Notes under the pieces: model-generated
The model's database searches: none
Told to the model about the DNA's origin: nothing
Seen by the model: only the letters and a program-made list of their open reading frames with translations
From: Spirochaetia bacterium
GTDB taxonomy: Bacteria > Spirochaetota > Spirochaetia > SZUA-6 > Bin103
Direction of reading: 5' to 3'
NCBI GenBank assembly: GCA_965203515.1
Contig: OZ241907.1
Span: 1,594,129 to 1,658,128 of the forward strand
DNA: 64,000 nucleotides
Made by a program: the position numbers and the translations under genes
Part shown: in pieces, positions 1-64,000 of the stretch
Numbering within the stretch: the stretch's first letter is position 1
Layout of the letters: each line of letters starts with the position of its first letter

Positions 1-123
1 CAAGGCATCGGCGATGACGACCTCGTCGAGCGGGCCGGCCACCGCGCCGACCGCCGCCGACTTGCCGACCGCGGTCGGTCCGAAGATCACCGGGATCGCC
101 CGGCGGCGACAGGGCACGCCCAC
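1..123 (-). CDS. miaA: tRNA dimethylallyltransferase, 5' part (runs off window start)
   Basis: Manual translation of minus strand: ...AIPVIFGPTAVGKSAAVGAVAGPLDEVVIADAL, matching the MiaA P-loop GPTAxGK and the following 'EIISADS'-like motif; lies downstream of rpoZ. Start codon uncertain. Confidence 0.8.
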   Translation of the reverse strand, partial: MGVPCRRRAIPVIFGPTAVGKSAAVGAVAGPLDEVVIADAL

Positions 124-154
124 CGGCGGCTGCGCGGCGGCTTCTTCGGGGCTG

Positions 155-379
155 CTACGGCCCCTGTTCCGACTCCTGGTCGATCTCCGTGCGCTCTATC
201 TCGTAGCGGACCTTCCGGGTCAGGATCTGCTTGACGGCGGTGGAGACGACCTTGCCGCCGTTGGCCTCCACGTCCTCATCGGCGGCAAGGCTGAGCTGAT
301 TGGCGCGGCGGATGGCGGCCGAGCAGAGCTCGTAACGGTTCGAGTCATCGGCTATCAGGAGATCGAGTGGCAGAACCAT
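155..379 (-). CDS. rpoZ: RNA polymerase omega subunit
   Basis: MVLPLDLLI..NRYELCSAAIRRANQL..GKVVSTAVKQILTRKVRY; RpoZ motif 'N/SRYxL....xRAxQL'. ATG at 379 preceded by TACGTT (-10-like) 7 nt upstream. Confidence 0.85.
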   Translation of the reverse strand: MVLPLDLLIADDSNRYELCSAAIRRANQLSLAADEDVEANGGKVVSTAVKQILTRKVRYEIERTEIDQESEQGP

Positions 380-455
380 AGTCGGTAACGTAGGGCATTC
401 GGCCGCAACGGGCAAACCGGCAGGCCACTGCCGGCAAGGCAGACGGGGACTCCGG

Positions 456-2699
456 TCACTCGTCCCCTCCTACCTGCACCCGAAGCTGCTGGCCGGCCAG
501 GGTCTGGCGCGCCCAGAACAGGTTCTGGCTCGCGTCGTTGCCGCCCGCCACCAGGTTCGCGGTGCCGGTCGCGGTGGTGCCGCCGCTCGGCGCCGCCGTA
601 AAGGTCACGGTTGGCGCGGTCACGTAGCCGCTCCCCCCGTTGGTAATCTCCACCGACCGGATGACGTATTCGAAGACCGCGGTGCCGACCGCCCTGGTGC
701 CGCCGGTCGGCGCCGCCGTAAAGGAGACGGTCGGGGCGGAGGTGTAGCCGCTGCCGGGGTTGGTGACCGTCGCCGACGGAACGGCGTAGACCACGCTGGC
801 GGTGGCGGTCGCCCCGCTGCCGCCACCGCCGGAAAAGGAGACGGTGGGCGCCGAGGTGTAGCCGCTCCCCGCGGTCCCGGCCGTCACCGAGCCGACCCCG
901 TAGTTCATCACCGCGGTGCCGGTCGCCGCGGTGCCGCCGGACGGCGCCGAAAAGGTCACGGTGGGCGCCGAGGTGTAGCCGCTCCCCCCGGCGGTGACCA
1001 TCACCTCATCCGCCTCGACGACCACGGTCGCGGTGGCGGCCGCCCCGCTGCCGCCGCCGCCGGAGAAGGAGACGGTGGGCGCCGAGGTGTAGCCGCTCCC
1101 CCCGCTGGTGACGTCAACCCCGGTGATGGTGCTGCCCATCACCGCGCGGTAGCCGGCGCCGCTGCCGCCGCCGCCGGTAAAGGTGATCGTGGGGGCGGAG
1201 GTGTAGCCGCTCCCCGCGTTGGTGACGTCGACCCCTCGAATGTTGGAGTACATTCTCACGTTGAACGCTGCCCCCGTGCCTACCGTAATGGAGACCGTGG
1301 GGGGCGAGGTGTAGCCGCGCCCCCGGTTGGTGAATACGAGGCGGTCCGCCCGCCCGTCTGAATGCCTGCTCAAGGTGGCGGTTGCCCTGGTGCCGCCGGA
1401 CGGCGGCGCCGAGAGGGTCACGACGGAGGCCGACGTGTAACCGCTGCCGTCGGCGGTTTTCGGCGCGCTCTGGACGGCGTCGGGCCCCCACGCGGTGCCG
1501 GTCGCGGTGGTGCCGCCGGCCCGTTGTGGGGCCGAGAAGGTCGCGGTCGGGACCGAGGTGTAGCCGCTCCCGTACTGATTGCCGATCCTCGTCACGGAAG
1601 CGACGCTGTCGGGCCCGGTCGCGGCGGCGGCAGCTCCGCTGCCGCCGCCGCCGGAGAAGGAGACGGTGGGGGGCGAGGTGTAGCCGCTGCCGGCGGTCCC
1701 GACGTTCACCGAAGTGACGGCCCCGCGCGTCGTCGCGGTGGCGGTCGCGCCGCTGCCGCCGCCGCCCGAAATGGTGACCGTGGGCGCCCCCGTATAGCCC
1801 GCTCCCCGGGTATCGAGCGTCACCGAAGCGACGCGGCCGCTGAGCGCCGCGGTGCCGGCCGCGTCGGTGCCGCCGGCCGGCGCCGCCGAGAAGGAGACGG
1901 TGGGCGCCGAGGTGTAGCCGCTGCCGGCGGTATCCATGTCCACCGAAACGACGCTGCCGCTGATATCCGCGGTGGCGGCCGCGCCACTGCCGCCGCCGCC
2001 GGAAAAGGAGATGGTGGGCGCCGAGTTGTAGCCGGCGCCGGCGGTCGTGACGTTCACCGAACCGACGCCGCCGCCGCCCGCTACGTCGGCGGTTGCCCGG
2101 GTGCCGCCGGCCGGCGGCGCCGCCAAGGTCACGCTGGGCGCCGAGGTGTAGCCGCTGCCCCGCTCGGTAATCGTGACCGACTCGACGGTGTCCGAGGCGC
2201 CCGACTGATCCGGGGCGGTGAGCACCAGCACGATCGAGCCCGCGCTCACTTCGGCGCCAACAGTCCACTGCGCGCCTGAGATGTCGTCGGCGAAGGCCGG
2301 CGCGGTCGCCATGCTCGTGAACGGCAGTTCGTTGCCGCCGATCGACACGGTCACCGTTTCGCCCTCGGCGCCGGTGATCCCGTCCCAGGCGAACGGCTCG
2401 GAGCGGATCGTCAAGGCGCTCGGGTCCGCTGCGTCAGGCAACGGCAGCGCCGATGACCAGGCATCATCCCCGATGTCCCAGCGCTGCTCGGCCGCCGGCG
2501 AAGTCGGGGCCGGCGTGGTCGGCGACCCGCCATTGCCGCCGGCGCCTCCGCTCCCTCCATTGCCGCCCGCGCCGCCCGCGCCGGCGCCGGTCGCGACCGG
2601 CGGGGCCGTCTGCTGGCACGCCAGCAGGGCGATGCCGGTGACTGCGGCCAGCGCCAGAAGCGCGGCCTTGCTGCTCATACCTTTGACCTTCCTTGCCAC
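456..2699 (-). CDS. Lipoprotein with 14 GSGYTSAPTV-type beta repeats (paralog 1)
   Basis: RBS AGGAGG before GTG 2699 (alternative ATG 2678); signal peptide ending LLA-C; Gly-rich linker; conserved N-domain; 14 ~40-aa repeats; C-terminal NLFWARQTLAG motif shared with two other genes in the window. Confidence 0.85.
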   Translation of the reverse strand: MARKVKGMSSKAALLALAAVTGIALLACQQTAPPVATGAGAGGAGGNGGSGGAGGNGGSPTTPAPTSPAAEQRWDIGDDAWSSALPLPDAADPSALTIRSEPFAWDGITGAEGETVTVSIGGNELPFTSMATAPAFADDISGAQWTVGAEVSAGSIVLVLTAPDQSGASDTVESVTITERGSGYTSAPSVTLAAPPAGGTRATADVAGGGGVGSVNVTTAGAGYNSAPTISFSGGGGSGAAATADISGSVVSVDMDTAGSGYTSAPTVSFSAAPAGGTDAAGTAALSGRVASVTLDTRGAGYTGAPTVTISGGGGSGATATATTRGAVTSVNVGTAGSGYTSPPTVSFSGGGGSGAAAAATGPDSVASVTRIGNQYGSGYTSVPTATFSAPQRAGGTTATGTAWGPDAVQSAPKTADGSGYTSASVVTLSAPPSGGTRATATLSRHSDGRADRLVFTNRGRGYTSPPTVSITVGTGAAFNVRMYSNIRGVDVTNAGSGYTSAPTITFTGGGGSGAGYRAVMGSTITGVDVTSGGSGYTSAPTVSFSGGGGSGAAATATVVVEADEVMVTAGGSGYTSAPTVTFSAPSGGTAATGTAVMNYGVGSVTAGTAGSGYTSAPTVSFSGGGGSGATATASVVYAVPSATVTNPGSGYTSAPTVSFTAAPTGGTRAVGTAVFEYVIRSVEITNGGSGYVTAPTVTFTAAPSGGTTATGTANLVAGGNDASQNLFWARQTLAGQQLRVQVGGDE

Positions 2700-15867: not shown

Positions 15868-17031
15868 ATGAGCCCCGGACGCGAGTCCCGTCCCCGATAC
15901 GACGAGCGGTACAAGATGCTGTTCGCCTTCCCGCGCATGGTCGAGGACCTCGTGCGCGCCTTCTTCAGCGGCGAGCAGCTCGCTACCGTAGACTTCTCGA
16001 CGCTGCAGAAGCTGTCGGCCGAGTACGTCAGCGACGAGTTGCTGAAGCGCCACGGGGACGCCGTATGGCGGCTGCGGGTGGGAGACGAGTGGACCTGTCT
16101 GCTGGTGCTGCTGGAGTTCCAGTCGCGCGATGACTACTACATGGCGCTGCGCATCCTTGTCTACGTCAGCCTGATGTACCAGGAGTGGCTGCGCAACGAG
16201 AGTCGGAAGAGGCGGGAAGGGCAGGAAGCGCGCCGCTTGCCGGCGGTGCTGCCGGTAGTGCTCTACAACGGCACGGACCCGTGGGGGGCGCCGCAGGAGG
16301 TGGGCGAGTTGATCGCGCCGGTGGGGCAGTGGCTGGCGGCGTACCAACCGGCGCAGCGTTACTTCGTAGTGGACGAGCAGCGGGTCGGGGCGGACTCGGT
16401 GCCGCGCGGGAATTTGATGCGGGCGGTGGTGGGGCTGGAGCAGAGTCGGTCGCCGGAGGACTTGTTGCGGGTAGCGAACGCGCTGGCGGAGTGGCTGGCG
16501 GGGTCGGAGCACGATGAGTTGCGACGGGTGTTCGAGGACTGGCTGCGGAGTTCGATCGAGCAGATCAAGCGGGAGGGGGAGGAGCTGCCGGAGATGAAGA
16601 ACCTGGAGGAGGTACGGATGACGCTGGAAGAGCGAGTGAAGGAGTGGCCGGCGCAGTGGATGCGGGAAGGCCGCGAGCAAGGACTTGCGCAGGGACTTGA
16701 GAAGGGCCGTGAGGAAGGCCGTGAGGAAGGCCGTGAGGAAGGCCGTGAGGAAGGCCGTGAGGAAGGCCGTGAGGAAGGCCGTGAGGAGGGCCGTGAGGAG
16801 GGTCTTGAGCAGGGCCGCGAGCAGGGCCGCGAGCAGGGACTTGAACACGAACGAACTCTGTTGCGCCGTATGGCAGCGCTGCGGTTCGGCGCCGAGACCG
16901 GCGAGCGCGCGGCGGCTCTGATGGCGGACATCGGGGAAGCGGATCAACTGGCCGACATCGGCGACTGGCTGGTGCAGTCCGGCGACGGCGACAAATTTCT
17001 GGCACGAATAGCGTCGATCGCGCGGTCGTGA
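15868..17031 (+). CDS. Rpn/YhgA-like PD-(D/E)XK nuclease (transposase_31 family)
   Basis: YDERYKMLF, 'RHGDAVWRL', LLEFQS, 'LPVVLYNG..W', C-terminal EGREEG repeats. Confidence 0.92.
   Translation: MSPGRESRPRYDERYKMLFAFPRMVEDLVRAFFSGEQLATVDFSTLQKLSAEYVSDELLKRHGDAVWRLRVGDEWTCLLVLLEFQSRDDYYMALRILVYVSLMYQEWLRNESRKRREGQEARRLPAVLPVVLYNGTDPWGAPQEVGELIAPVGQWLAAYQPAQRYFVVDEQRVGADSVPRGNLMRAVVGLEQSRSPEDLLRVANALAEWLAGSEHDELRRVFEDWLRSSIEQIKREGEELPEMKNLEEVRMTLEERVKEWPAQWMREGREQGLAQGLEKGREEGREEGREEGREEGREEGREEGREEGREEGLEQGREQGREQGLEHERTLLRRMAALRFGAETGERAAALMADIGEADQLADIGDWLVQSGDGDKFLARIASIARS
16705..16800 (+). repeat. 12-bp tandem repeat x8 (GREE) within rpn
   Basis: ggccgtgagga(a/g) repeated. Confidence 0.9.
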
Positions 17032-32291: not shown

Positions 32292-33571
32292 CTAATCCGC
32301 TGTCTGCGCCGGAATTCTCACCAGAAGCCGCTTGCCCGCCAGCGTCTGGCGCGCCCAGAACAGGTTGTGGTATTGATCGTTGCCCTCCTCCGCCAGTATT
32401 GCCCTGGCGGTCGCGCCGCTGCCCCCTCCGCCCGTAATCGTAACGGCGGGCGGTGACGGGTAACCGCTCCCCCCGTTCGTGACCGTCACCGACGTGACCT
32501 GGGTTTGCAGCACCGCGCTGCCGGTTGCCGTCCGGGGAGAACCACCGCCCGTCGAGGTCTGAAAGGTCACGGTCGGGGCGGACGTGTAGCCGCTCCCGGG
32601 GTTCGTGATCGTCACTCCGGTTACTTTTCGGTGCGCCACCTCCATGCGGGCGGCCGCACCGCTGCCCCCTCCGCCCGAGAACGTAATGGCAGGGGGAGAC
32701 GTGAGGCTGTAGCCGCTCCCCCGGTCCCCCATGTCATAGGCGTAAACTCGACCGTTCTGTATAAGGATCGTTACGGTTGCCTGGGTGCCGCCTGAGCCGG
32801 CCGGCGGAGGGTCGATCGTCGCGGTTGGGGGAGAAGTGTAACCGCTCCCCAGGTTCGAGAAAATCGGTCTGACTACTTCGACTGTCATCGTCGTCGTTCC
32901 GGTCGCCGTGGTGCCGCCGGACGGCGCCGCCCCGAACGTCACGGATGGGCAACACCCGGAGTAATAATAGCCGCGTTCCGACCCCATCTGCACTCGCGCC
33001 ACGCCGCCGGGCCCCACCGCGGCGCCTGTTGCCGCGGTGCCGCCTGCCGGCGGCGCCGCGATCGTCACGGTGGGAACCGAGGTGTAGCCGCTCCCCCCGT
33101 TCGTGAGCCTCACCGACTCCACGAAGCCCAGGTTTTCGGTCTGATCCGGAGCGGTGAGCACCAGCGTCACCGCGCCCGCCCGAACCTCGGCGGCAACCGA
33201 CCACTCCGCGCCGGAGATGTCGGACGCGAAGACCGGCTCCGTACTCGTGCTCGTGAACGGCAGATCGTGTCCGTCGATCGAAACGTTCACTTCGGCGCCG
33301 GCGGTGATCGGCTCCCAGGCATACGTGGAACGGTTGGACACTTCGCCCACCAGATTCAGTTCATCATTACCAAAGTCCGCCGCGCTGATCGTCCAGCTCC
33401 TCTCTGCCGGTTGCGGAGTTGGCGTCGGCTCACTCGGTGGCTGCCCCCCCCCCCCCCCCCCCCTTGGGCCGGGTCGGTGGTTGTGGCGGGCGTGCGCGCC
33501 GCCGGCGCGCACGCCATCAGGGAGGCGACAGCGACGGCCAGCAACAGCGACAACCTCAAGTCTCTACCCAC
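32292..33571 (-). CDS. Lipoprotein with 6 GSGYTS-type repeats (paralog 2), frameshifted at a poly-G tract
   Basis: RBS GGAGGAGG, GTG 33571, signal peptide ending LMA-C in one frame (ORF 33356-33640); the body is in another frame (ORF 32292-33512). The span of 1280 nt is 1 nt short of in-frame, with the shift at G20. Confidence 0.82.
33444..33463. repeat. C20 (sense G20) homopolymer in the coding linker of paralog 2; out of frame
   Basis: CAA-G20-CAG; G21 or G18 would restore the frame. Confidence 0.9.
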
Positions 33572-55205: not shown

Positions 55206-55670
55206 ATGGCTCACATAAACCGCCGTCCGGTCTGGTTCGTCGGGGCCAAGTGGCACGACCACGAGCCGCCGGATCAGACCGAACGTTTCCTGGCGGAAGG
55301 AGTATGGGAAGGATACGCCGATCAGCACCTCGATGACGTCAAGTCGGTCCAGCGCGGCGACAGGATCGTCATCAAATCGACGTACACCCGGAAGCACGGG
55401 TTGCCGTTCGACAATCGTGGAAAACCGGTCTCGACAATGATGATCAAGGCCGTCGGCGAAGTCACGGAGAACCCCCGCGATGGCCGTCGATTGAAGGTGA
55501 CCTGGAAGCCGGTGCTCCCCCCGCGGGAGTGGTACTTCTACACCTATCGCAGGACGGTCTGGAAAGTGCAGCGCTCGTCGGAAGCATCGTCGAAAGCAGA
55601 CGCGCTGATCCGGTTCGCGCTCGACGGAGAGGAGCAGGACTTCGAGACCTTCCTGAAAGCGCCATGCTAG
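55206..55670 (+). CDS. Detached N-terminal (putative DNA-recognition) domain of McrB
   Basis: VWFVGA..DQTERFLAEGVW..GDRIVIKSTYTRKHGLPFDNRG..REWYFYT; I recall this domain fused to McrB-type AAA+ proteins. The ORF is open upstream to 54954. Confidence 0.65.
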   Translation: MAHINRRPVWFVGAKWHDHEPPDQTERFLAEGVWEGYADQHLDDVKSVQRGDRIVIKSTYTRKHGLPFDNRGKPVSTMMIKAVGEVTENPRDGRRLKVTWKPVLPPREWYFYTYRRTVWKVQRSSEASSKADALIRFALDGEEQDFETFLKAPC

Positions 55671-57346
55671 GGGTACAGGCATCGGTTGAATGGGCCGCGT
55701 TCTTCTCCGATATGGCTGACAATCTGCTGCAATACCGGGACCACCGCGAGGCGTTAATCACTAAGGTGATCGCCATTTCCCGGAGTCTGGGAATGGCGTC
55801 TAGTGACAAGTTCGCGGGTGACACTGAGGGAGACATCCAGGATATCTGCCCGTTTTCTACATTCGGATGCTTCAACAGATCCAATCAGGCGGATCCCAAA
55901 CGGATGACCTTCGCCGAAGAGCTTGCGAGCTTTCTGCAAGTGCGAAGGCCGGTGCCAACGTTGAACTCGAACGAAGATGGTATCCCGTCACTCGATCCGA
56001 AAAGGCTCTGGGTCTTCCCTTTCGAAAAGGATCGGAACCGAGACGACATCGACTCTTTATGGGCACTCTTCGTGGACGCCATCAAACTCGCCGATGCGGG
56101 TGATGGAGATGATGACAACGTCCGCTCGGCATTCGTACGGTCTTACGACAAGATATGTCCACGAAAGGGCAAAGGTGTCATCAAGGGCGTCGGCACCACT
56201 ACACTTACCATCGGACTCTACTGGATACGTCCATATATATTTCCGCCTTTGGATAAGCACTCGATCAAGTACATAAAAGAGACCCTCGGGGAACATGTAC
56301 CGGAGGAGCCGAAGGCCCAAGACTACCTAGGACTCAGGGACAGACTACTGGAACGGTTCGATAATCCGGATGCTCCGGTCCACTCGTTCCCGGAGTTGAC
56401 GCGGTCAGCGTATAACCGAAGCGACTCCAACGGTGACGACCCCGGTCCAGAGCCGCCGCCCGCCGGGTACACCATCGACCATATTCTCGCCGATGGCTGC
56501 TTCCTTTCACGGGAGTCGCTCGAGAAAGTGATTGGCCGGCTGCGGACTCGGAAGAACCTGATTCTGCAGGGACCGCCGGGGACGGGCAAGACCTGGTTGG
56601 CCAAGAGATTGGCGTTCGCCTTGCTCGGCCGCAAGGATGAGGGCCGAATCCGCCATCTCCAATTTCACCCCAACCTGTCATACGAGGACTTCGTGCGCGG
56701 CCATCGTCCCGTCGAAGGACGACTGGAGCTGACCGACGGGCCGTTCCTGAAGATCACGCAGGAAGCGCGGAACGATCCCGACCACGCCTACGTTGTCGTC
56801 ATCGAGGAGATCAATCGCGGGAACCCGGCGCAGATCTTCGGAGAGGTGCTCACGTTGTTGGAGGCCGACAAGCGGACGCCGGACGAGGCGCTGGCGCTCG
56901 CCTTTCCCCGTGCTGAGGACGAGCGGGTCCACGTTCCGCCAAACGTCTATCTGATCGGCACCATGAACGTCGCCGACCGGTCGCTGGCCCTGGTCGATCT
57001 GGCGCTGCGCCGCCGGTTCGCGTTCGTCGATCTGGAGCCGGTCTTCGGCGTGTCGTGGCGCCGGTGGATGCGGGATCATGGAGGACTTGCCGACGCCTTC
57101 CTGCGGAGGATCGAGCAACGCATGATCGCTCTGAACGAGGAGATATCCGCCGATCACGGTCTCGGCAGGCAGTTCCGGGTGGGCCACAGCTATCTTACGG
57201 TGCCGCCGGAGACCCGCATCGCCAACCGGGAAGCGTGGTACCGCGAGGTGGTCGAAACGGAGATCGGGCCGCTGCTCCGCGAATACTGGTTCGACCAGCC
57301 CGACAAGGCCGATGCTCAGGAGAAGCACCTGCTCACGGACTTCTGA
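55664..57346 (+). CDS. mcrB: McrB-family AAA+ GTPase
   Basis: NLILQGPPGTGKT, QFHPNLSYEDFV, IEEINRG, GTMNVADRS, ALRRRF, GHSY. Confidence 0.92.
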   Translation: MLGVQASVEWAAFFSDMADNLLQYRDHREALITKVIAISRSLGMASSDKFAGDTEGDIQDICPFSTFGCFNRSNQADPKRMTFAEELASFLQVRRPVPTLNSNEDGIPSLDPKRLWVFPFEKDRNRDDIDSLWALFVDAIKLADAGDGDDDNVRSAFVRSYDKICPRKGKGVIKGVGTTTLTIGLYWIRPYIFPPLDKHSIKYIKETLGEHVPEEPKAQDYLGLRDRLLERFDNPDAPVHSFPELTRSAYNRSDSNGDDPGPEPPPAGYTIDHILADGCFLSRESLEKVIGRLRTRKNLILQGPPGTGKTWLAKRLAFALLGRKDEGRIRHLQFHPNLSYEDFVRGHRPVEGRLELTDGPFLKITQEARNDPDHAYVVVIEEINRGNPAQIFGEVLTLLEADKRTPDEALALAFPRAEDERVHVPPNVYLIGTMNVADRSLALVDLALRRRFAFVDLEPVFGVSWRRWMRDHGGLADAFLRRIEQRMIALNEEISADHGLGRQFRVGHSYLTVPPETRIANREAWYREVVETEIGPLLREYWFDQPDKADAQEKHLLTDF

Positions 57347-58503
57347 TGGCGCCCGACGGTACGGCGGCGGCGCGGCCCGCCGCGAGTGAGCCGGCGGTCG
57401 CCGCTGGCCGCGGCAACGTCGGCCGGATTCCGGTCCGCAACATCTGGCTGCTGATGCTGTACGCCTCCCGTCTCTACCGGGAGCTGCCGCCGGCGCGGCG
57501 GGTCGCCATTGAGGATAACCCGGATGAGCTCCCCGACTTGGTAGCGCAGCTCCTTACCCGTGCCGTCGAGCGGCGGCTGCGGCGCAACCTGAGCTTCGCG
57601 TTCCAGGAAACCAGCGCGGACCTGCGGCGGGTGCGCGGCCGCATCGACCTGCTGCGCACCGAACGGCGTCACCTGCTGCGGCGGGGCCGAGTCGCTTGCC
57701 GGTACGAGGAACTGACGGTCGACACGCCGCGCAACCGGTACGTACGGGCCGCGGCGCAGAAGTTGGTCACGGTCGTCGGCGCGGCGCACCTCGTTTCCCG
57801 GTGCCGCGCCGCGGACGCCCGCCTGGAGGCCGCCGGCGTGAGCTCAGACCCGGCCCTGGCCAGCCCGCGGGGGCGGAGCGCCGCCGCCGAGTTGCGGGGA
57901 CGCATGGACCCGGAGGACCGGACCATGATGGCCGCCGCCGAACTCGCCTTCAGCCTTGCGCTGCCAACCGAGACCGCCGGCGGAACCTATCTGCGTTCGC
58001 CCGACCGCGATGAGGTCTGGGCGCGGCGGTTGTTCGAGGCGGCGGTGGGCGGCTTCTACCAGGTAGTGTTGGCGCCAAAGTGGAGCACGCAGACGGGGAG
58101 GCTGATGCGTTGGCAAGTGGACGGCAGCACCTCTCGACTGCGCGAGCTGCTGCCGTCGATGACGGCCGACATAGTGCTCGAATCCCGCGACCGGCGAATC
58201 ATCATCGACACCAAGTTCACGTCGATTGTGACCGCGGGTCACTACCGGCAGGCGACGCTCAGCAGCGAACACCTCTACCAGCTCTACTCCTACGTGCGGT
58301 CTCAGGAGCGACCGGACGATCCGCGGTCGCTCGGCGCGACCGGAATGTTGCTGCACCCGTCAGTCCGGGAAGACGTCTACGAAGCCGCGGTCATTCAGGG
58401 CCACGAAGTGCGCTTCGCCACCGTCGATCTCGCGGCCTGCAGCCGAACGATACGGGAACGGCTGCTGCAGGTGGTGGCCGGAAGCCTGTTCGACCGTGAG
58501 TGA
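57346..58503 (+). CDS. mcrC: McrC restriction endonuclease subunit
   Basis: IPVRNIWLLMLYA, DTPRNR, LFEAAV, ADIVL..IIDTK, LYQLYSY; start overlaps the mcrB stop. Confidence 0.92.
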   Translation: MAPDGTAAARPAASEPAVAAGRGNVGRIPVRNIWLLMLYASRLYRELPPARRVAIEDNPDELPDLVAQLLTRAVERRLRRNLSFAFQETSADLRRVRGRIDLLRTERRHLLRRGRVACRYEELTVDTPRNRYVRAAAQKLVTVVGAAHLVSRCRAADARLEAAGVSSDPALASPRGRSAAAELRGRMDPEDRTMMAAAELAFSLALPTETAGGTYLRSPDRDEVWARRLFEAAVGGFYQVVLAPKWSTQTGRLMRWQVDGSTSRLRELLPSMTADIVLESRDRRIIIDTKFTSIVTAGHYRQATLSSEHLYQLYSYVRSQERPDDPRSLGATGMLLHPSVREDVYEAAVIQGHEVRFATVDLAACSRTIRERLLQVVAGSLFDRE

Positions 58504-58509
58504 CCTGAC

Positions 58510-60270
58510 TCACCCTTCCACTACCTGAACCCGAAGCTGCTTGCCGTACAGCGTTTGGCGCGCCCAATACAGGTTCTGGTACCGATCGTAGCCGCCCTCT
58601 GCCAGTGTTGCCGTGGCTGTCGCGGTGGTGCCGCCTGGCGGCGCGGCCTGAAAGGTAACGGTCGGGGCCAGCAGGTAACCGCTTCCCGGGTTCGTAATCG
58701 TCACTGACGCTACCTCGTATTGCATAGCCGCGGTGGCGGTTGCGGTGGTGCCGCCGGACGGCGCGGCCGTAAAGGAAACGGTGGGGGCGGAGGTGTAGCC
58801 GCTCCCCGCGTTCGTGACCGTCACTGACGCTACCTCGTATTGCATAGCCGCGGTGGCGGCCGCGGTGGTGCCGCCGGACGGCGCGGCCGTGAAGGAAACG
58901 GTGGGGGCGGAGGTGTAGCCGCTCCCCGCGTTCGTGACCGTCACTGACGCTACCTCGTATTGCATAGCCGCGGTGGCGGCTGCGGTGGTGCCGCCGGACG
59001 GCGCGGCCGCAAAGGAAACGGTGGGGGCGGAGGTGTAGCCGTTCCCACCGTTCGTGACCGTCACTGACGTTACGCCGGTTTGCAGCACCGCGGTGGCGGT
59101 CGGGGTGATGCCGATGCCGAGGGGCGCCGAAAAGGTAACGGTCGGGGCCGACGTGTAGCCGCTCCCGGCGTTCGTGATCGTCACGGAAGTGATCTGACCC
59201 GCGGAGTTCCTGGACGCGGTGCCGGTTGCGGTGGTGCCGCCGGACGGCGCGGCCGTAAAGGTCACGGACGGGATATTCAAAATGTAGCCGCTCCCGCCGG
59301 TGTTTATCGTCACCGACGCGACGCTGCCGGGACCTGCCGCGGTGCCGGTTGCGGCAGTGCCGCCGGACGGCGCGGCCGTAAAGGTGACGGACGGGACCGA
59401 GGTGTAGCCGCTCCCGGCAGTCGTTATCGTCACGGCATCGACGCTACCGGACCCCGCCGCGGTACCGGTTGCGGCAGTGCCGCCGGACGGCGCGGCCGTA
59501 AAGGTGACGGACGGGACCGAGGTGTAGCCGCTCCCGGCAGTCGTTATCGTCACGGCATCGACGCTACCGGACCCCGCCGCGGTACCGGTTGCGGCAGTGC
59601 CGCCGGACGGCGCGGCCGAAAAGGTGACGGCGGGGACCGAAGTGTAGCCGCTCCCCGCGTTCGTGATCGTCACGGCATCGACGCTGCCGGACCCCGCCGC
59701 GGTACCGGTTGCGGCAGTGCCGCCGGACGGCGCGGCCGAAAAGGTGACGGCGGGGACCGAGGTGTAGCCGCTCCCCGCGTTGGTGACCGTGACGGACTCG
59801 ACGAAGCCTGCGCTTTCCGTCTGATCCTCGGCGGTGAGCACGAGCACCACTGTGCCCGCCCGGACCTCCGGGGTGACCGTCCACTCCGCACCGGAGATAT
59901 CGGACGCGAAGACCGGCTTCGCACTCGTACTCGTGAACGGCAGCGCATGCCCGCCGATCGAAACGCGCACGTCGTCGCCGCCGGTGATCCGGTCCCAGGC
60001 ATACGGCGCCGAACGGTTGACCGTCTGGCTCAGCAGGTTGGCGTCATCACCAAAGTGCGCCGCGCTGATCGTCCAGCGCTTCTCGGCCGGCTGCGAGGTC
60101 GGCGGCGGCTCGCTCGGTGGCTTACCCCCCCCCCCCCCCCCCCCAGAGCCGGCGTCGGCGGGAGCAGCAGCGGCCGGCCGCGCCGCCTCGCCGCAGGCCA
60201 GCATGGCGATGCCGGCAGCCGCCACGAGCGCGAGCAACGCTGCCTTACGAGCCGGGTGGGCGGGGTTCAT
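58510..60270 (-). CDS. Lipoprotein with 10 GSGYTS-type repeats (paralog 3), in frame
   Basis: RBS GGAGG, ATG 60270, signal peptide ending MLA-C, G20-encoded Gly7 linker, conserved N-domain, 10 repeats, NLYWARQTLYG motif. Confidence 0.88.
   Translation of the reverse strand: MNPAHPARKAALLALVAAAGIAMLACGEAARPAAAAPADAGSGGGGGGGKPPSEPPPTSQPAEKRWTISAAHFGDDANLLSQTVNRSAPYAWDRITGGDDVRVSIGGHALPFTSTSAKPVFASDISGAEWTVTPEVRAGTVVLVLTAEDQTESAGFVESVTVTNAGSGYTSVPAVTFSAAPSGGTAATGTAAGSGSVDAVTITNAGSGYTSVPAVTFSAAPSGGTAATGTAAGSGSVDAVTITTAGSGYTSVPSVTFTAAPSGGTAATGTAAGSGSVDAVTITTAGSGYTSVPSVTFTAAPSGGTAATGTAAGPGSVASVTINTGGSGYILNIPSVTFTAAPSGGTTATGTASRNSAGQITSVTITNAGSGYTSAPTVTFSAPLGIGITPTATAVLQTGVTSVTVTNGGNGYTSAPTVSFAAAPSGGTTAAATAAMQYEVASVTVTNAGSGYTSAPTVSFTAAPSGGTTAAATAAMQYEVASVTVTNAGSGYTSAPTVSFTAAPSGGTTATATAAMQYEVASVTITNPGSGYLLAPTVTFQAAPPGGTTATATATLAEGGYDRYQNLYWARQTLYGKQLRVQVVEG
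58681..59070. repeat. 120-bp near-identical tandem repeat, C-terminal arm of paralog 3
   Basis: Sequence lines recur every 120 bp (e.g. tcactgacgctacctcgtattgcatagccg at 58701, 58821, 58941). Confidence 0.9.
59320..59790. repeat. 120-bp near-identical tandem repeat, N-terminal arm of paralog 3
   Basis: gcggcagtgccgccggacgg at 59351, 59471, 59591, 59711. Confidence 0.9.
60125..60144. repeat. C20 (sense G20) homopolymer in the coding linker of paralog 3; in frame
   Basis: TCT-G20-T-AAG encodes seven Gly codons. Confidence 0.9.
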
Positions 60271-60367
60271 GCTTCGTCCTGCCTCCTGCAGAGACATCGT
60301 GCGGATGAATGGGCGATGCGCAAGGGAATCGACGCACGACGGTGATGGCCGCGGCTTAGCAGGCCTT

Positions 60368-60384
60368 GGGGGGGGGGGGGGGGG
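60368..60384. repeat. G17 (sense C17) homopolymer upstream of paralog 3
   Basis: Counted directly. Confidence 0.9.
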
Positions 60385-60519
60385 AGGATTTGGTTGTCGG
60401 GGCTCATGCTTTGATCTGCCTCCATGCCTGCAGGACATCCTGCCGGATGAAATGGGCGACGCGCAAGCGGTCGGCTTGATCCTCGCCTCGCCTGACCTGA
60501 CCGGAACCGGCGCGACCGC

Positions 60520-62259
60520 CTACGACGGCCGCAGGACGGCGCCGAACACGGTCAGGCCGTCCTCGGTACCGGGGATGATGGCGGCGGCCCGCAACGTGAA
60601 GGTGCGGACGCCCGCCTCGACCACGGAGATGCGGCCGATCGGCGTGCCGAACTCCGGGAAATAGTGCGAGCGGGGGCTGGCGATGCGCAGGGTGTCGCCC
60701 AGGGCGCCTGCGGCGCCGCGGCCGGCGCCGGCGGACACCTCGACGCGGTGCGGCGTGACCTGCTCGGTGCCGTGCACGGGCGCCGCGATGACCGTCACGG
60801 CGAACGAACCGGGCTGACAGATCCGCACCCGCCACGACAGCGCGCTTTCGGTATCGATCCAGCCGGCGGTCAGGCCGTTGGAGAGGATCTCCAGCGTGGA
60901 CCCCGGCCCGCGCGCCGCCTCGGCCAGGTGCGCGTGCAGGTGGATGGAGCCGTCCGGCTGCTGGACGGTCAACTCGTCGGCTTCGGCAGCGCCGTCGATG
61001 CCCAGCGCCACCACCGGCACGTGCGCGACCGCGCCGAGGTCGGGAAGGGTCAACGTGAGCCGGTCGACGCCGCCGGCATCGGTGCGGTCCTGCGCGACCT
61101 CCACCGGCGCTTCGAGCCCCAGCACCTCGGCGCCGGTCACGCGCGAGCGCAGCCCGTGCACGACCAGCCGGCCGGCCTGCGGCTGCAGCAGGTGGATGAA
61201 CAGCCGGCCCGGCTTGCAGGTCATGCGCAGGGAGTCGTGCTCGTAGGGGAACGGACTGCCGCCGGTGCCATGGATCGCCTCGCCGTTGACCGCCATCCAG
61301 GCGCCGATCGCGCGCAGCCGCTCGGCGCTGGGTTCGGGGATCACCCCGGCCGCGGTCGGTCCGACGTTGAGCAGATAGTTCACCCCCTTGCTGGCCAGGT
61401 CGATCAGCAGCAGGAGCAGCGTGGAGACCGATTTCCAGTGGTGATCGGTGCTCTTGTAACCCCAGGTGTCGTTGAGGGTGGCCGGCGTCTCGTAGTCGGC
61501 GCGCACGCGCCCGGCCGGAATCTGGTTGTCGCCCAGGCTGCCGTAGTCGCCCACGTCATTGCCGATGCGGCCGCTGACCAGACACTCCGGCTGCAGGCGG
61601 TGCACGAAGTCGCGCAGCTCGATGCTGTGCTCGCGGCTGATGGTGTACGGGGTATCGAACCAGATCAGGCCGATCGGCCCGTATTGGGTCAGCAGTTCGC
61701 GAAGCTGCGGCTTGACCTTGCGCTCCAGATAGGCGGCGAAGTCCTTGCCGCCCTCGTCGAAGTCCCAGTCGTTGCGCGACCCGTCCGGGTCGTGCCAGTC
61801 CTGATCCTGCGAGTAATAGAGGCCGAGCTTGATGCCGGCGGCAGCGCATTCCTGCGCCAGTTCCGCCAGCGGGTCGCGGCCGAAGGGGGTGGCGTCGACG
61901 ACGTTGTAGGGACAGCACGGCGAACGGAACAGCGCAAACCCGTCGTGGTGCTTGGTGGTGATCACCAGGTAGCGCATGCCGGCCTGCACCGCCAGCTCCA
62001 CCCAGGCGCGGGCGTCGAAGCGCACCGGGTCGAAGCTCCGTGCCAGCTCCGCGTAGCGCTGCCGGGGAATGCGCTTGCGAAACATGATCCACTCGCCGAT
62101 CCCCGGCACCTCCTCGCCCTCCCACACGCCGGCGGGGATGGCGTACAGACCCCAGTGGATGAACATGCCGAAGCGCGCTTCGCGCCACCACCCCAGCCCC
62201 GGATGGTCGACCGCCGCGGCCGCGTTACGGCCGCGCATCCGCTCGCGCCAGCTCATCAT
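60520..62259 (-). CDS. GH29 alpha-L-fucosidase
   Basis: WWREARFGMFIHWGLY, TTKHHDGF, IWFD, LLNVGP. Start approximate. Confidence 0.93.
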   Translation of the reverse strand: MMSWRERMRGRNAAAAVDHPGLGWWREARFGMFIHWGLYAIPAGVWEGEEVPGIGEWIMFRKRIPRQRYAELARSFDPVRFDARAWVELAVQAGMRYLVITTKHHDGFALFRSPCCPYNVVDATPFGRDPLAELAQECAAAGIKLGLYYSQDQDWHDPDGSRNDWDFDEGGKDFAAYLERKVKPQLRELLTQYGPIGLIWFDTPYTISREHSIELRDFVHRLQPECLVSGRIGNDVGDYGSLGDNQIPAGRVRADYETPATLNDTWGYKSTDHHWKSVSTLLLLLIDLASKGVNYLLNVGPTAAGVIPEPSAERLRAIGAWMAVNGEAIHGTGGSPFPYEHDSLRMTCKPGRLFIHLLQPQAGRLVVHGLRSRVTGAEVLGLEAPVEVAQDRTDAGGVDRLTLTLPDLGAVAHVPVVALGIDGAAEADELTVQQPDGSIHLHAHLAEAARGPGSTLEILSNGLTAGWIDTESALSWRVRICQPGSFAVTVIAAPVHGTEQVTPHRVEVSAGAGRGAAGALGDTLRIASPRSHYFPEFGTPIGRISVVEAGVRTFTLRAAAIIPGTEDGLTVFGAVLRPS

Positions 62260-62288
62260 CTCTGCGATGGATGGGTCATACTCCTTCC

Positions 62289-64000
62289 GTGCCATCGACC
62301 GCAAGCGCCGCGGCCGCCATCCGGGTGGGACAGATTCTGAGCGGCCCGCTGTTCAGCGAGCCGATGCTGGTGGAGACGGTGCGTTCGAACGGGCCGGACA
62401 CCTGGATCGCGGGTCTGGTCGGCCGGCAGTCGGAGCGGTTTCGGCGGGTCACGCTGACCGCGGCCGACCTCGCCGCGCTGACCATCGCCGACGCCGCCCG
62501 CTCCTATGACGGCGACGGCCGGCTGCTGCGCCTCGCCCTGCAGGCCTACGCGCTCGGCATCGCCTACGAGTTCGAGCCCTACTTCGGGCTGTCGATCTCA
62601 CGGGTGGACCCGTTGCCGCATCAGCTCGAAGCGGTCTACGAACACCTCCTCAAGCTGCCGCGCGTGCGCTTCCTGCTGGCCGACGACGCCGGCGCCGGCA
62701 AGACGATCATGGCCGGCCTCTTGATCCGCGAGCTCAAGCTGCGCGGTCTGATCGAACGCATCCTGGTGGTCGGCCCCGCGAACCTGGCGTTCCAGTGGCA
62801 GCGCGAGCTCAACGAGAAGTTCGAGGAGCGGTTCGTCGTGCTGAAGGGCGCCGACCTGCGCGGCCAGTTCGGCGTCAACCAGTGGCTGGAGCAGCGGCAG
62901 GTCATCACCTCGCTCGACCTGGCCAAGCGCGCCGACATCCTGCCCGGACTGGCGCAGGTGCGCTGGGACCTGGTGATCGTCGACGAGGCGCACCGCATGT
63001 CGGCGCGGGACGAGACCCACAAGAGCCAGCGCTACCGGCTGGGCGAGCTGCTGCGCGACCGCGCCGATCACGTGCTGCTGCTGACCGCCACCCCGCACAA
63101 GGGCGACGCCGGCAACTTCACGCTGTTCCTGCAGCTCCTCGACCGGGACGCCTACGCCGACGTGACCTCGATCCGCCGGGCGATGGAGCAGCGGCGCGCC
63201 CCGTTCTACCTGCGCCGCACCAAGGAGGCGATGGTCTACTTCCCGGAGCGGCAGGAGAACGGCGCCTGGACCGCCCGGCCGGTATTCACCAAGCGCATCG
63301 CGCGTACCGCCGGCTTCGCCATCGACAGCGCCGAGCACGAGCTCTACCGCACGGTCACGCGCTTCGTGAAACGGCAGAGCGCCCGCGCCGCGGCGCAGGA
63401 CGACGACCCGCGGGCGCGCGCCGTGGGATTCCTGATGGCGCTGTACCAGCGGCGCCTGGCGTCGAGCACCCATGCCCTGCGGCGGTCGCTCGAAAACCGG
63501 GCGCGGCGCCTGGAGGAGGGACTGAGCCGCGCCCGCGAGCTGCTGCGCACGGCGCCGCCGCAGCTTCCCGATCAGGAGGAGCTCGACGAGCTCGAAGACG
63601 CCGAGCGCGAACGGCTGGAGCGCATCCTGGAGGCGGTCACGCTGGCCGGCAACGCCGCGCAGGTGCGGGAGGAAGCCGCCGAGCTGCGCGGCCTGGCGCG
63701 GCAGGCGCAGGCGGTCGAAGCCGCGGGCAGCGAGGCGAAGCTGCGCCGCTTGCGGTCGATCATGCGGGATGAGGGGTTCTTCGACCGGCCCGGCCAGCGG
63801 TTGCTGATCTTCACCGAGTTCCGGGACACGCTCGACTACCTGCTGGAGCGGCTCACGGCGTGGGGCTTCGCGGCGGGCTGCATCCACGGCGGCATGAAGC
63901 CGGGCGCGCGCGACGAACCGGGGACGCGGCTGCACGCCGAGCAGCGGTTCCGCGACGGCGAGATCCAGGTGCTGGTCGCCACCGAGGCGGCCGGCGAAGG
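62289..64000 (+). CDS. SNF2-like helicase, partial (runs off window end)
   Basis: Manual translation (absent from the ORF track): VDPLPHQLEAVY, FLLADDAGAGKT, IVDEAH, LLTATPH, LRRTKE, LLIFTEFRDT, VLVATEAAGE. GTG 62289 lies 6 nt below CATACT. Confidence 0.92.
   Translation, partial: MPSTASAAAAIRVGQILSGPLFSEPMLVETVRSNGPDTWIAGLVGRQSERFRRVTLTAADLAALTIADAARSYDGDGRLLRLALQAYALGIAYEFEPYFGLSISRVDPLPHQLEAVYEHLLKLPRVRFLLADDAGAGKTIMAGLLIRELKLRGLIERILVVGPANLAFQWQRELNEKFEERFVVLKGADLRGQFGVNQWLEQRQVITSLDLAKRADILPGLAQVRWDLVIVDEAHRMSARDETHKSQRYRLGELLRDRADHVLLLTATPHKGDAGNFTLFLQLLDRDAYADVTSIRRAMEQRRAPFYLRRTKEAMVYFPERQENGAWTARPVFTKRIARTAGFAIDSAEHELYRTVTRFVKRQSARAAAQDDDPRARAVGFLMALYQRRLASSTHALRRSLENRARRLEEGLSRARELLRTAPPQLPDQEELDELEDAERERLERILEAVTLAGNAAQVREEAAELRGLARQAQAVEAAGSEAKLRRLRSIMRDEGFFDRPGQRLLIFTEFRDTLDYLLERLTAWGFAAGCIHGGMKPGARDEPGTRLHAEQRFRDGEIQVLVATEAAGE

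What the first reader, a model, noticed from the sequence alone, without database searches (positions are those of the whole stretch)
58681..59790. Matched expansion of two separate 120-bp arrays in paralog 3
Seen: the N-arm has four closely related units (SVDAVTIT..GTAAGSG type) and the C-arm has four related units (EVASVTVT..AAMQY type). Units are near-identical within an arm, differ between arms, and flank one unique central pair. Inference: two recent, physically separate duplications ended in equal copy number, as expected if each N-arm unit needs a C-arm partner. This would be a length-tuning mechanism under a pairing constraint.
Basis: partly seen in the sequence, partly recalled or inferred. 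Interest (0 to 1): 0.75.

Follow-up and report, generated by a model that had tools for sequence, protein, structure and literature searches.

The report
Fold-back repeat stalk in switchable lipoprotein
The two blocks of look-alike 120-bp repeats are real and sit in one gene of a large family of on/off-switchable spirochaete surface lipoproteins whose repeat number is almost always even, probably because the repeat chain folds back on itself so that the first half packs against the second half.

Summary
The array is real (TRF, period 120, 9.8 copies). It encodes ten ~40-aa units in a lipoprotein gene (window 58510-60270, minus strand). R1-R4 are 85-96% identical in DNA and R7-R9 92-98%. R10 is only 67-76% like R7-R9, so at one threshold the blocks are 4 and 3, not 4 and 4.

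The pairing idea gains independent, indirect support:
- Parity: 25 of 27 paralogs in this genome have an even unit number. So do 41 of 42 complete database homologs and all 15 complete genes in two related genomes. On an N-domain tree the number changes at least 21 times but parity only 3 times.
- Structure: in two AlphaFold2 models the C-terminal strand aligns with the N-terminal domain, so the array ends meet.
- Centre: a distinctive unit pair sits at the array centre across sizes.
- Arm-against-arm prediction gave weak support only.

The main rival is that two adjacent units form one ~80-aa domain, as in phage homologues. That also explains parity.

Whether paralog 3 grew by matched duplications or was homogenised at fixed length is open. 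An earlier scan note (e1-774986) reported this family's poly-G switch in another genome.

The parts
58510..60270 (-). Paralog 3 gene: lipoprotein with an N-terminal domain, ten ~40-aa units and a conserved C-terminal tail. An alternative start lies at 60297. The stop codon is 58510-58512.
   Evidence: ORF list; start and Cys positions; 100% self-match in the genome search
60193..60270 (-). Signal peptide ending in a lipobox. The Cys codon is 60193-60195.
   Evidence: Read from the translation. The same lipobox type is found in 17 of the 29 paralog ORFs listed.
60125..60144 (-). G20 tract on the coding strand (C20 on +), just after the signal peptide. Here it is in frame (gene ON).
   Evidence: The same tract type leaves the signal peptide out of frame in 8 of the 29 ORFs listed.
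60368..60384 (-). C17 tract on the coding strand (G17 on +), 71-98 nt upstream of the candidate start codons. Possibly a second, promoter-level slippage tract.
   Evidence: A promoter role is inferred, not tested.
59806..60093 (-). N-terminal beta domain (about 96 aa), the marker of the family. In both models the C-terminal strand aligns as part of it.
   Evidence: 30 matches in this genome, 25 and 5 in two relatives. No Pfam hit. VIA ranges 35..561 and about 10..380.
59326..59805 (-). N block: units R1-R4, 85-96% identical in DNA.
   Evidence: clade with SH-aLRT 94
59197..59325 (-). R5, a diverged N-type unit of 43 aa and the longest unit. Proposed outward side of the tip.
   Evidence: The longest unit is unit n/2 in 50 of 91 even-numbered members.
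59074..59196 (-). R6, a unique unit of 41 aa. Proposed return side of the tip.
   Evidence: In the 10-unit model the strands break at the R5|R6 boundary.
58717..59073 (-). C block: units R7-R9, 92-98% identical in DNA.
   Evidence: clade with SH-aLRT 93
58591..58716 (-). R10, the diverged terminal unit (67-76% to R7-R9).
58513..58590 (-). Conserved C-terminal tail: a predicted helix plus strand. The strand joins the N-terminal domain in the models.
   Evidence: Tail conserved in all paralogs; pLDDT 92-96; VIA ranges end at residues 558-561
456..2678 (-). Another family member in the window, with 14 units at 555-2189. A G23 tract on + (C23 on the coding strand) lies at 2765-2787, upstream of its start.
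32292..33563 (-). Another family member in the window, with 6 units. Its signal peptide is out of frame across a G20 tract (C20 on +, 33444-33463): OFF state.

Best explanation
Paralog 3 is one of about 27 genes in this genome for poly-G-switched lipoproteins. Each has a lipid anchor, a flexible linker, an N-terminal beta domain, an array of ~40-aa half-domain units and a conserved C-terminal helix plus strand.

Most likely the array folds back on itself. Units 1-5 run outward from the base and units 6-10 run back. The C-terminal strand re-enters the N-terminal domain. Unit i packs against unit n+1-i, so the pairs are R1/R10, R2/R9, R3/R8, R4/R7, with R5/R6 as the tip.

A viable protein then needs an even unit number with balanced arms. 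Unequal crossing-over or gene conversion between neighbouring 120-bp units homogenises each arm separately, and selection keeps only balanced arrays. This yields the two blocks, R1-R4 and R7-R9.

Shown:
- the blocks themselves;
- the parity rule across the family;
- the frame states of the homopolymer tracts.

Inferred from models:
- that the two ends meet;
- the mirror-symmetric strand pattern.

Not shown:
- physical arm-to-arm packing;
- surface exposure of the protein;
- that paralog 3 actually changed in length.
For: (1) Parity.
- 25 of 27 family genes in this genome have an even unit number, from 4 to 14.
- Of 42 complete database homologs, 39 are even as counted. The figure is 41 once two proteins with an 80-85-aa gap, a missed unit, are corrected.
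- In two related genomes all 15 complete genes with more than one unit are even: 4, 6, 8, 10, 12 and 30.
- On an N-domain tree of 44 genes the unit number changes at least 21 times and parity 3 times.

(2) The ends meet. In both AlphaFold2 models nearly all top VIA matches to the N-domain span the model from about residue 35 to 558-561 (10-unit model) or about 10 to 377-383 (6-unit model), with only 58-89 aligned residues. So the C-terminal strand is part of that domain. The models have pLDDT 81.0 and 83.7.

(3) Mirror-symmetric model features.
- Strands run continuously across boundaries 2|3, 3|4, 7|8 and 8|9.
- They break at 1|2, 5|6 and 9|10.
- The low-confidence stretches 279-317 and 361-400 mirror each other about the R5|R6 boundary.
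- The 6-unit model shows the same pattern.

(4) A distinctive 'e|g' unit junction lies at boundary n/2 in members with 6, 10, 12 and 14 units. It therefore falls at the centre both when n is a multiple of 4 and when it is not. A fixed adjacent-pair register does not predict this. The longest unit is unit n/2 in 50 of 91 even members, against 20.3 expected.

(5) Balanced differences between paralogs.
- The 12-unit o_566499 has one more N-arm unit and one more C-arm unit than the 10-unit o_1260710.
- The 14-unit o_4095306 has two more units on each side of the centre than the 10-unit o_1194236.

(6) Four near-identical units in a row all play one role under fold-back. Under adjacent pairing they would have to alternate between two roles.

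(7) Complex prediction, R2-R4 against R7-R9: weak support, score 0.32 against best control 0.00.
- The mark was reached by 116 of 157 solved complexes and 2 of 215 mismatched pairs.
- At 0.60 or under it was reached by only 18 of those 157 and by both mismatches that passed.
- The runs agree in at least 98% of contacts, and partner pLDDT is at least 84.
- Chain pLDDT fell from 83-85 to 51-52 and 68 with unrelated partners.
Against: - No coordinates or contact map could be read, so arm-to-arm contact is inferred from alignment ranges and strand patterns only. pTM is modest, 0.52 and 0.54.
- The complex result is a weak pass. It is also confounded: each fragment held three units, so under the adjacent-pair rival an orphan half-domain on each chain could pair in trans.
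- In phage homologues the two-unit module is contiguous. BFVD matches of 82 columns have rmsd 1.1-1.4 A, and PHROG best stretches are about 80 aa.
- Homologs lacking the tail motif also lean even: 47 of 66 after gap correction, 40 of 66 raw. Parity may therefore come from two-unit domains in general.
- Exceptions exist. There are odd members with 11, 9 and 7 units, and 1-unit remnants.
- The e|g junction is off-centre by one unit in o_1194236 and o_4095306.
- The e/g profile gave clear scores only for some size classes.
- The mirror correlation of adjacent-unit identity is 0.225, reached by 7 of 5000 shuffles. It is no sharper than with the axis shifted by one unit, which gives 0.333.
- In paralog 3 the near-identical blocks are 4 and 3.
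- Family members are kin, so counts are not independent.
Confidence: 0.5

Rival explanations
1. Adjacent-pair domains. Two neighbouring units form one ~80-aa domain, as in phage virion proteins, and the array is a string of such domains. Even numbers follow from that alone. The two near-identical blocks are ordinary local concerted evolution in a tandem array, in which neighbours homogenise while the ends and middle diverge. Their similar size is incidental.
For: - PHROG matches with E down to 3.7e-51, whose best stretches are often about 80 aa.
- BFVD matches of 82 columns at rmsd 1.1-1.4 A and 36-41% identity.
- In the 6-unit model the T4 gp18 domain I-like match is the contiguous pair U3+U4, residues 191-269, Z 5.9.
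- The strand pattern of the 6-unit model (broken at 1|2, 3|4, 5|6; continuous at 2|3, 4|5) fits this model too.
- Non-clamped homologs also lean even, 47 of 66 after gap correction.
- Local homogenisation occurs in one arm only in some paralogs: o_1194236 in the C block only, o_1778109 in the N block only. It occurs at the centre in o_4095306, where U7/U8 are 97% identical.
Against: - It does not explain why the C-terminal strand aligns with the N-domain in two models.
- It does not explain why the e|g junction is central in 12-unit as well as 6-, 10- and 14-unit members.
- It does not explain why o_1260710 and o_566499 differ by single, non-adjacent units, one per arm.
- In the 10-unit model boundaries 3|4 and 7|8 are continuous strands, not breaks.
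- Four near-identical units in a row would have to adopt two alternating roles.
Confidence: 0.3
2. No structural constraint. The array is a hypervariable size-variation region of a variable surface lipoprotein, and the roughly equal blocks in paralog 3 are coincidence.
For: - At one identity threshold the blocks are 4 and 3.
- Unit numbers range from 4 to 30 in the family.
- Arrays can collapse to one unit: G000:C1:628770-629265 is 93.6% identical to paralog 3 over the N-domain and carries an R1/R10 hybrid unit.
Against: The parity rule: 25 of 27, 41 of 42 and 15 of 15 members even. Parity changed only 3 times against at least 21 changes of number. The odd members are terminal branches. One of them (9 units) also has an out-of-frame signal peptide and an altered C-terminus.
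Confidence: 0.08
3. Assembly artefact. The number of near-identical 120-bp units in one or both blocks is mis-assembled.
For: Units are up to 98% identical. Short-read contigs of four public runs break up inside the array, and none spans it.
Against: - The genome is a single 4.14-Mb contig.
- Short contigs from other runs match block junctions without a difference: 59357-59494, 59233-59374, 59012-59155 and 58588-58728 in run X10. These runs may include the source sample.
- The frame is intact through the array.
- The even total fits the family rule.
Confidence: 0.05

Closest known systems
Phase- and size-variable surface lipoproteins of mycoplasmas (Vlp of M. hyorhinis, Vsa of M. pulmonis, Vaa of M. 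hominis). Recalled from own knowledge; also named in earlier scan note e1-774986.
   Same: A multigene family of lipoproteins. Homopolymer tracts switch genes on and off. In-frame tandem repeats differ in number between copies.
   Different: No sequence relationship was tested or is expected. Here the repeat is a folded beta unit related to phage virion proteins, and its number is restricted to even values. No such parity rule is known to me for Vlp or Vsa. The host is an uncultured high-GC spirochaete seen in sponge metagenome runs, not a pathogen.
The ~40-aa repeat of phage virion structural proteins (PHROG families phrog_19630, phrog_460, phrog_5342, phrog_701 and others, annotated as tail fibre, baseplate wedge, head closure or virion structural protein)
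   Same: Clear sequence homology of the units: E 3.7e-51 to 1e-12 over several stretches. Predicted-structure matches in BFVD: 45 with E at or below 0.001.
   Different: Here the units sit between a lipoprotein signal peptide plus N-domain and a C-terminal tail that the phage proteins were not shown to have. No phage genes flank the gene. The neighbours are an AAA_5 (McrB-like) gene, an McrC gene, an alpha-L-fucosidase and an SNF2-type helicase.
Antiparallel two-arm stalks whose arm lengths must match (SMC/Rad50 coiled-coil arms). Recalled; an analogy of principle only.
   Same: The N- and C-terminal parts form one head. The chain reverses at a distal tip. Length can change only if both arms change together.
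   Different: The arms here are beta-rich repeat units, not coiled coils. There is no ATPase head and no homology.
'Velcro' closure of beta-propellers. Recalled.
   Same: A C-terminal strand completes a domain begun by the N-terminus, closing a repeat array into a loop.
   Different: The array here has 4-30 units, which is not compatible with a single closed ring of fixed size. A hairpin is the more likely closure.
T4 tail sheath gp18 domain I (PDB 3foa, 3fo8)
   Same: A two-unit piece of both models superposes on residues 99-187. In the 10-unit model: Z 6.0, rmsd 2.6 A, 70 aligned, range 253..412. In the 6-unit model: Z 5.9, rmsd 3.0 A, 74 aligned, range 191..269.
   Different: Z is below the level the tool treats as more than a common arrangement. 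There is no sequence match to any PDB chain.

Membership tests
Phage-type ~40-aa virion-protein repeat (PHROG families) | Significant profile match of the units | tested here: met
   16 PHROG families at E of 0.01 or less for paralog 3, the best 3.7e-51. 17 families for the 6-unit paralog.
Phage-type ~40-aa virion-protein repeat (PHROG families) | Gene lies in a phage or prophage and encodes a virion part | tested here: not met
   The protein has a lipoprotein signal peptide. Neighbours are AAA_5/McrBC, an alpha-L-fucosidase and an SNF2 helicase. About 27 dispersed chromosomal copies exist.
Phase-variable, size-variable surface lipoprotein families (Vlp/Vsa type) | Signal peptide with a lipobox cysteine | tested here: met
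   Read from the translation of paralog 3. Found in 17 of the 29 ORFs listed.
Phase-variable, size-variable surface lipoprotein families (Vlp/Vsa type) | Slippage-prone homopolymer tract that sets the frame or promoter, with ON and OFF states | tested here: met
   G12-G22 tracts lie after the signal peptide. The peptide is out of frame in 8 of the 29 ORFs and in frame in paralog 3. C15-C31 tracts lie upstream in others. Tract-length variation between strains at this locus was not shown.
Phase-variable, size-variable surface lipoprotein families (Vlp/Vsa type) | Repeat number varies between alleles of one locus | not testable with these tools
   Only short Logan contigs could be laid, and none spans the array. 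Variation is shown between paralogs only.
Phase-variable, size-variable surface lipoprotein families (Vlp/Vsa type) | Surface exposure | not testable with these tools
   Needs experiment.
Fold-back (two-arm) repeat stalk, the proposed architecture | N- and C-termini form one domain | tested here: met
   Met in models only. VIA ranges are 35..561 and about 10..380 with 58-89 aligned residues.
Fold-back (two-arm) repeat stalk, the proposed architecture | Unit i contacts unit n+1-i | tested here: inconclusive
   No contact map was available. Complex prediction gave weak support, 0.32 against best control 0.00. The result is confounded by possible pairing of orphan half-domains.
Fold-back (two-arm) repeat stalk, the proposed architecture | Arm unit numbers co-vary, giving even totals and a central tip | tested here: met
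   Parity counts. Central e|g junction in 6-, 10-, 12- and 14-unit members, with two exceptions. Balanced differences between paralogs.
Pfam / NCBIfam families | Any curated family match | tested here: not met
   Pfam gave only two sub-threshold chance rows (E about 0.5) and NCBIfam none. The N-domain alone gave none.

The most novel reading that the evidence does not exclude
The family may be a nested ('Russian-doll') beta-repeat hairpin. Each rung of the stalk would be one small barrel built from one outward half-unit and one returning half-unit, with the C-terminus clamped back into the N-terminal domain. Evolution could then lengthen or shorten the stalk only by adding or removing a unit in both arms. 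The two young blocks in paralog 3 would be a record of such matched rung additions. This would be a beta-sheet counterpart of the matched-arm rule of SMC-type coiled coils, operating in a phase-variable surface protein family of a sponge-associated spirochaete.
Probability: 0.4. Interest if true: 0.78.

Novelty: new variant of a known kind. Interest (0 to 1): 0.6.

Why it matters
Tandem-repeat surface proteins are usually thought to change length freely, one unit at a time. Here about 21 independent changes of repeat number almost all kept the number even, in a family that also carries homopolymer on/off switches.

If the fold-back model is right, it gives a concrete, testable case of protein architecture dictating which repeat-number mutations survive. 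It would also describe a rigid stalk of tunable length built from a phage-derived module. The model predicts exactly which deletions should be tolerated: one unit from each arm, or the central pair.

The family is expanded in this lineage. The N-domain query gave 30, 25 and 5 matches in three genomes of one genus and none in the 18 other relatives searched. It is therefore a candidate interface between an uncultured spirochaete and its host or its phages.

Tried and rejected
- Pfam and NCBIfam on the whole protein gave no family.
- The PDB by sequence, with the protein and with a 30-unit profile, gave no match.
- Foldseek against the PDB with the 10-unit model gave nothing at E of 0.001 or less.
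- The ESM Atlas gave a best score of 0.84, below the level that counts, and holds no structure.
- Full-text searches found nothing relevant. The terms were a 10-residue unit motif; 'spirochaete, sponge, symbiont, lipoprotein'; and 'even number of repeats, tandem repeat, protein'. I saw listings and abstract starts only.
- Public reads: 15 runs hold part of the stretch. Four were laid. All are short Logan contigs that break up in the repeats and also pick up the paralogs. No piece spans the array, so copy number, alleles and mis-assembly could not be tested. The many 'joints' listed are uninterpretable in a 27-copy repeat family.
- An e/g unit-profile census gave 35 of 90 test proteins centred against 17.2 expected. 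Many assignments had scores near or below zero, so I use only the clear cases.
- Mirror correlation of adjacent-unit identity was positive but not specific to the exact axis.
- A second homolog search restricted to the N-domain returned only 25 proteins, all already seen.
- I considered a closed-ring architecture and set it aside, because unit numbers run from 4 to 30.
- I could not read model coordinates, so no contact map was made.
Full report
WHAT IS THERE

Tandem Repeats Finder reports one array at 58622-59803, with period 120, 9.8 copies and score 1072. It lies on the minus strand in an ORF at 58510..60438. The translation reads, in order:
- a signal peptide ending in a lipobox cysteine (Cys codon 60193-60195);
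- a Gly/Pro-rich linker;
- a ~96-aa N-terminal domain (59806-60093);
- ten units of 39-43 aa;
- a conserved 26-aa tail.

Cut by coordinates, R1-R4 (59805-59326) are 85-96% identical in DNA and R7-R9 (59073-58717) are 92-98% identical. The two blocks are 69-78% alike. R10 is only 67-76% like R7-R9. R5 is 73-79% like R1-R4. R6 is 64-75% like every other unit.

In a DNA tree of 108 units from 11 paralog ORFs, R1-R4 and R7-R9 are each a clade specific to this gene (SH-aLRT 94 and 93). Units of most other paralogs group by position across genes instead. Both blocks were thus homogenised or expanded within paralog 3.

THE GENE FAMILY

The window lies in a single-contig genome of 4.14 Mb and 69.5% G+C. 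Its nearest named relatives are uncultured Spirochaetia MAGs. Public runs holding the stretch are mostly labelled sponge metagenome.

The genome holds 27 genes with this N-domain and four or more units. Two others lie in the window: 456-2678 with 14 units, and 32292-33563 with 6 units. There is also a collapsed one-unit copy.

An N-domain query found matches in 3 of 21 genomes searched: 30, 25 and 5 matches, all in one genus.

Pfam and NCBIfam give nothing. The units do match 16 PHROG families of phage virion proteins, with E down to 3.7e-51. They also match predicted phage structures, 45 at E of 0.001 or less.

Most paralogs carry long homopolymer tracts:
- G12-G22 right after the signal peptide;
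- C15-C31 upstream in others.

In paralog 3 the G20 tract (60125-60144) is in frame. In 8 of the 29 ORFs listed, including the 6-unit copy in the window, the signal peptide is out of frame with the body. This agrees with earlier scan note e1-774986 on another genome. The family looks like a set of phase-variable lipoproteins.

TESTING THE PAIRING IDEA

Parity:
- 25 of the 27 genes here have an even unit number. The odd ones have 11 and 9 units.
- Among 42 complete database homologs, 39 are even as counted. That becomes 41 when two proteins with an 80-85-aa gap are corrected.
- In two related genomes the 15 complete genes with more than one unit have 4, 6, 8, 10, 12 or 30 units.
- On a tree of the non-repeat N-domain (44 genes; rows without a recognisable tail or with a short N-terminus were left out), unit number changes at least 21 times and parity 3 times, each on a terminal branch.

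Structure:
- AlphaFold2 models of paralog 3 (pLDDT 81.0, pTM 0.52) and of the 6-unit paralog (pLDDT 83.7, pTM 0.54) were compared with 48,161 PDB chains.
- In both, matches to the N-domain span from its start to the last residues of the protein, with only 58-89 aligned residues. The C-terminal strand is therefore modelled as part of the N-domain, and the array ends meet.
- Strand continuity and confidence are mirror-symmetric about the central boundary.
- The central two units resemble T4 gp18 domain I, but only at Z of about 6.

Centre:
- A distinctive junction between an 'e' and a 'g' unit type forms two well-supported clades.
- It lies at boundary n/2 in members of 6, 10, 12 and 14 units.
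- It is off by one unit in o_1194236 and o_4095306.
- The longest unit is unit n/2 in 50 of 91 even members, against 20.3 expected.

Balanced change:
- The 12-unit o_566499 differs from the 10-unit o_1260710 by one unit in each arm.
- The 14-unit o_4095306 differs from the 10-unit o_1194236 by two units on each side of the centre.

Direct test:
- R2-R4 against R7-R9 as separate chains gave weak support, score 0.32 against best control 0.00.
- The mark was reached by 116 of 157 solved complexes and 2 of 215 mismatches.
- At 0.60 or under it was reached by only 18 of the 157 and by both mismatches that passed.
- The runs agree in at least 98% of contacts, and partner pLDDT is at least 84.
- Each arm's own confidence dropped with an unrelated partner, from 83-85 to 51-52 and 68.

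WHAT SPEAKS AGAINST IT

- I could not read coordinates, so arm-to-arm contact is inferred.
- In phage homologues the two-unit module is contiguous.
- Homologs without the tail also lean even: 47 of 66 after gap correction, 40 of 66 raw.
- A string of adjacent-pair domains therefore explains parity as well.
- That rival could also explain the weak complex pass, through orphan half-domains pairing in trans.
- The rival does not explain the clamp of the two ends, the central junction in 12-unit members, the one-per-arm difference, or four identical units in a row.
- The mirror correlation of neighbour identity (0.225; reached by 7 of 5000 shuffles) is not specific to the exact axis.
- Local homogenisation is not always two-sided. 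It is C block only in o_1194236, N block only in o_1778109, and central in o_4095306.

PARALOG 3 ITSELF

Two related paralogs (68% and 64% identity) also have ten units. R1 keeps the family's usual first-unit start but is otherwise like R2. A collapsed copy elsewhere (G000:C1:628770-629265, 93.6% identical over the N-domain) carries an R1/R10 hybrid unit.

These facts fit repeated unequal exchange and conversion within each arm. They do not show a net gain of units. Short public contigs could test neither allele lengths nor the assembly.

VERDICT

The repeat blocks are real. An adjacent-pair domain model stands at about 0.3. The specific claim of two matched recent duplications in this gene remains open.

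Noticed in passing
window 60125-60144, 60368-60384, 33444-33463, 2765-2787: Long homopolymer tracts mark all three family genes in the window. Paralog 3 has a G20 tract (coding strand) after its signal peptide, in frame, and a C17 tract 71-98 nt upstream of its start. The 6-unit paralog has a G20 tract that leaves its signal peptide out of frame. The 14-unit paralog has a C23 tract upstream. Genome-wide, 19 of the 29 ORFs listed have a tract of 12 or more.
   Followed up: partly
G000:C1:628770-629265 (outside the window): A collapsed copy of paralog 3. Its N-domain is 93.6% identical. It has a single hybrid unit (first part like R1, last part like R10), the tail, and no signal peptide in frame. 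It shows that exchange between the first and last unit can delete the whole array.
   Followed up: partly
L044 (G003:C1:1882000-1888000), ORF of 1422 aa: A family member with 30 units in a related genome. Its longest units (14-18 of 30) are again near the middle.
   Followed up: partly
G000:C1:564120-571202 (outside the window): Three family genes lie in tandem, with 14, 12 and 11 units. The 11-unit gene is one of only two odd members, and its signal peptide is in frame.
   Followed up: no
G000:C1:1940445-1942425 (outside the window): A family gene is broken by a frame change inside a unit. Read across the break it has 12 units in all. Its signal peptide is also out of frame at a G13 tract.
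   Followed up: no
window 55529-58503 and 60520-63998: Flanking genes: an AAA_5 (McrB-like) ATPase and an McrC-family protein downstream; an alpha-L-fucosidase directly upstream on the same strand; and an SNF2/ResIII-type helicase.
   Followed up: partly
G000:C1:3369774-3371255 (outside the window): A lipoprotein-like ORF with 10 units of the same repeat but without the family's N-domain and tail. Two non-adjacent units (U5 and U9) are 95% identical.
   Followed up: no
window 16665-16833: A 12-bp tandem repeat with 14 copies, unrelated to the finding.
   Followed up: no
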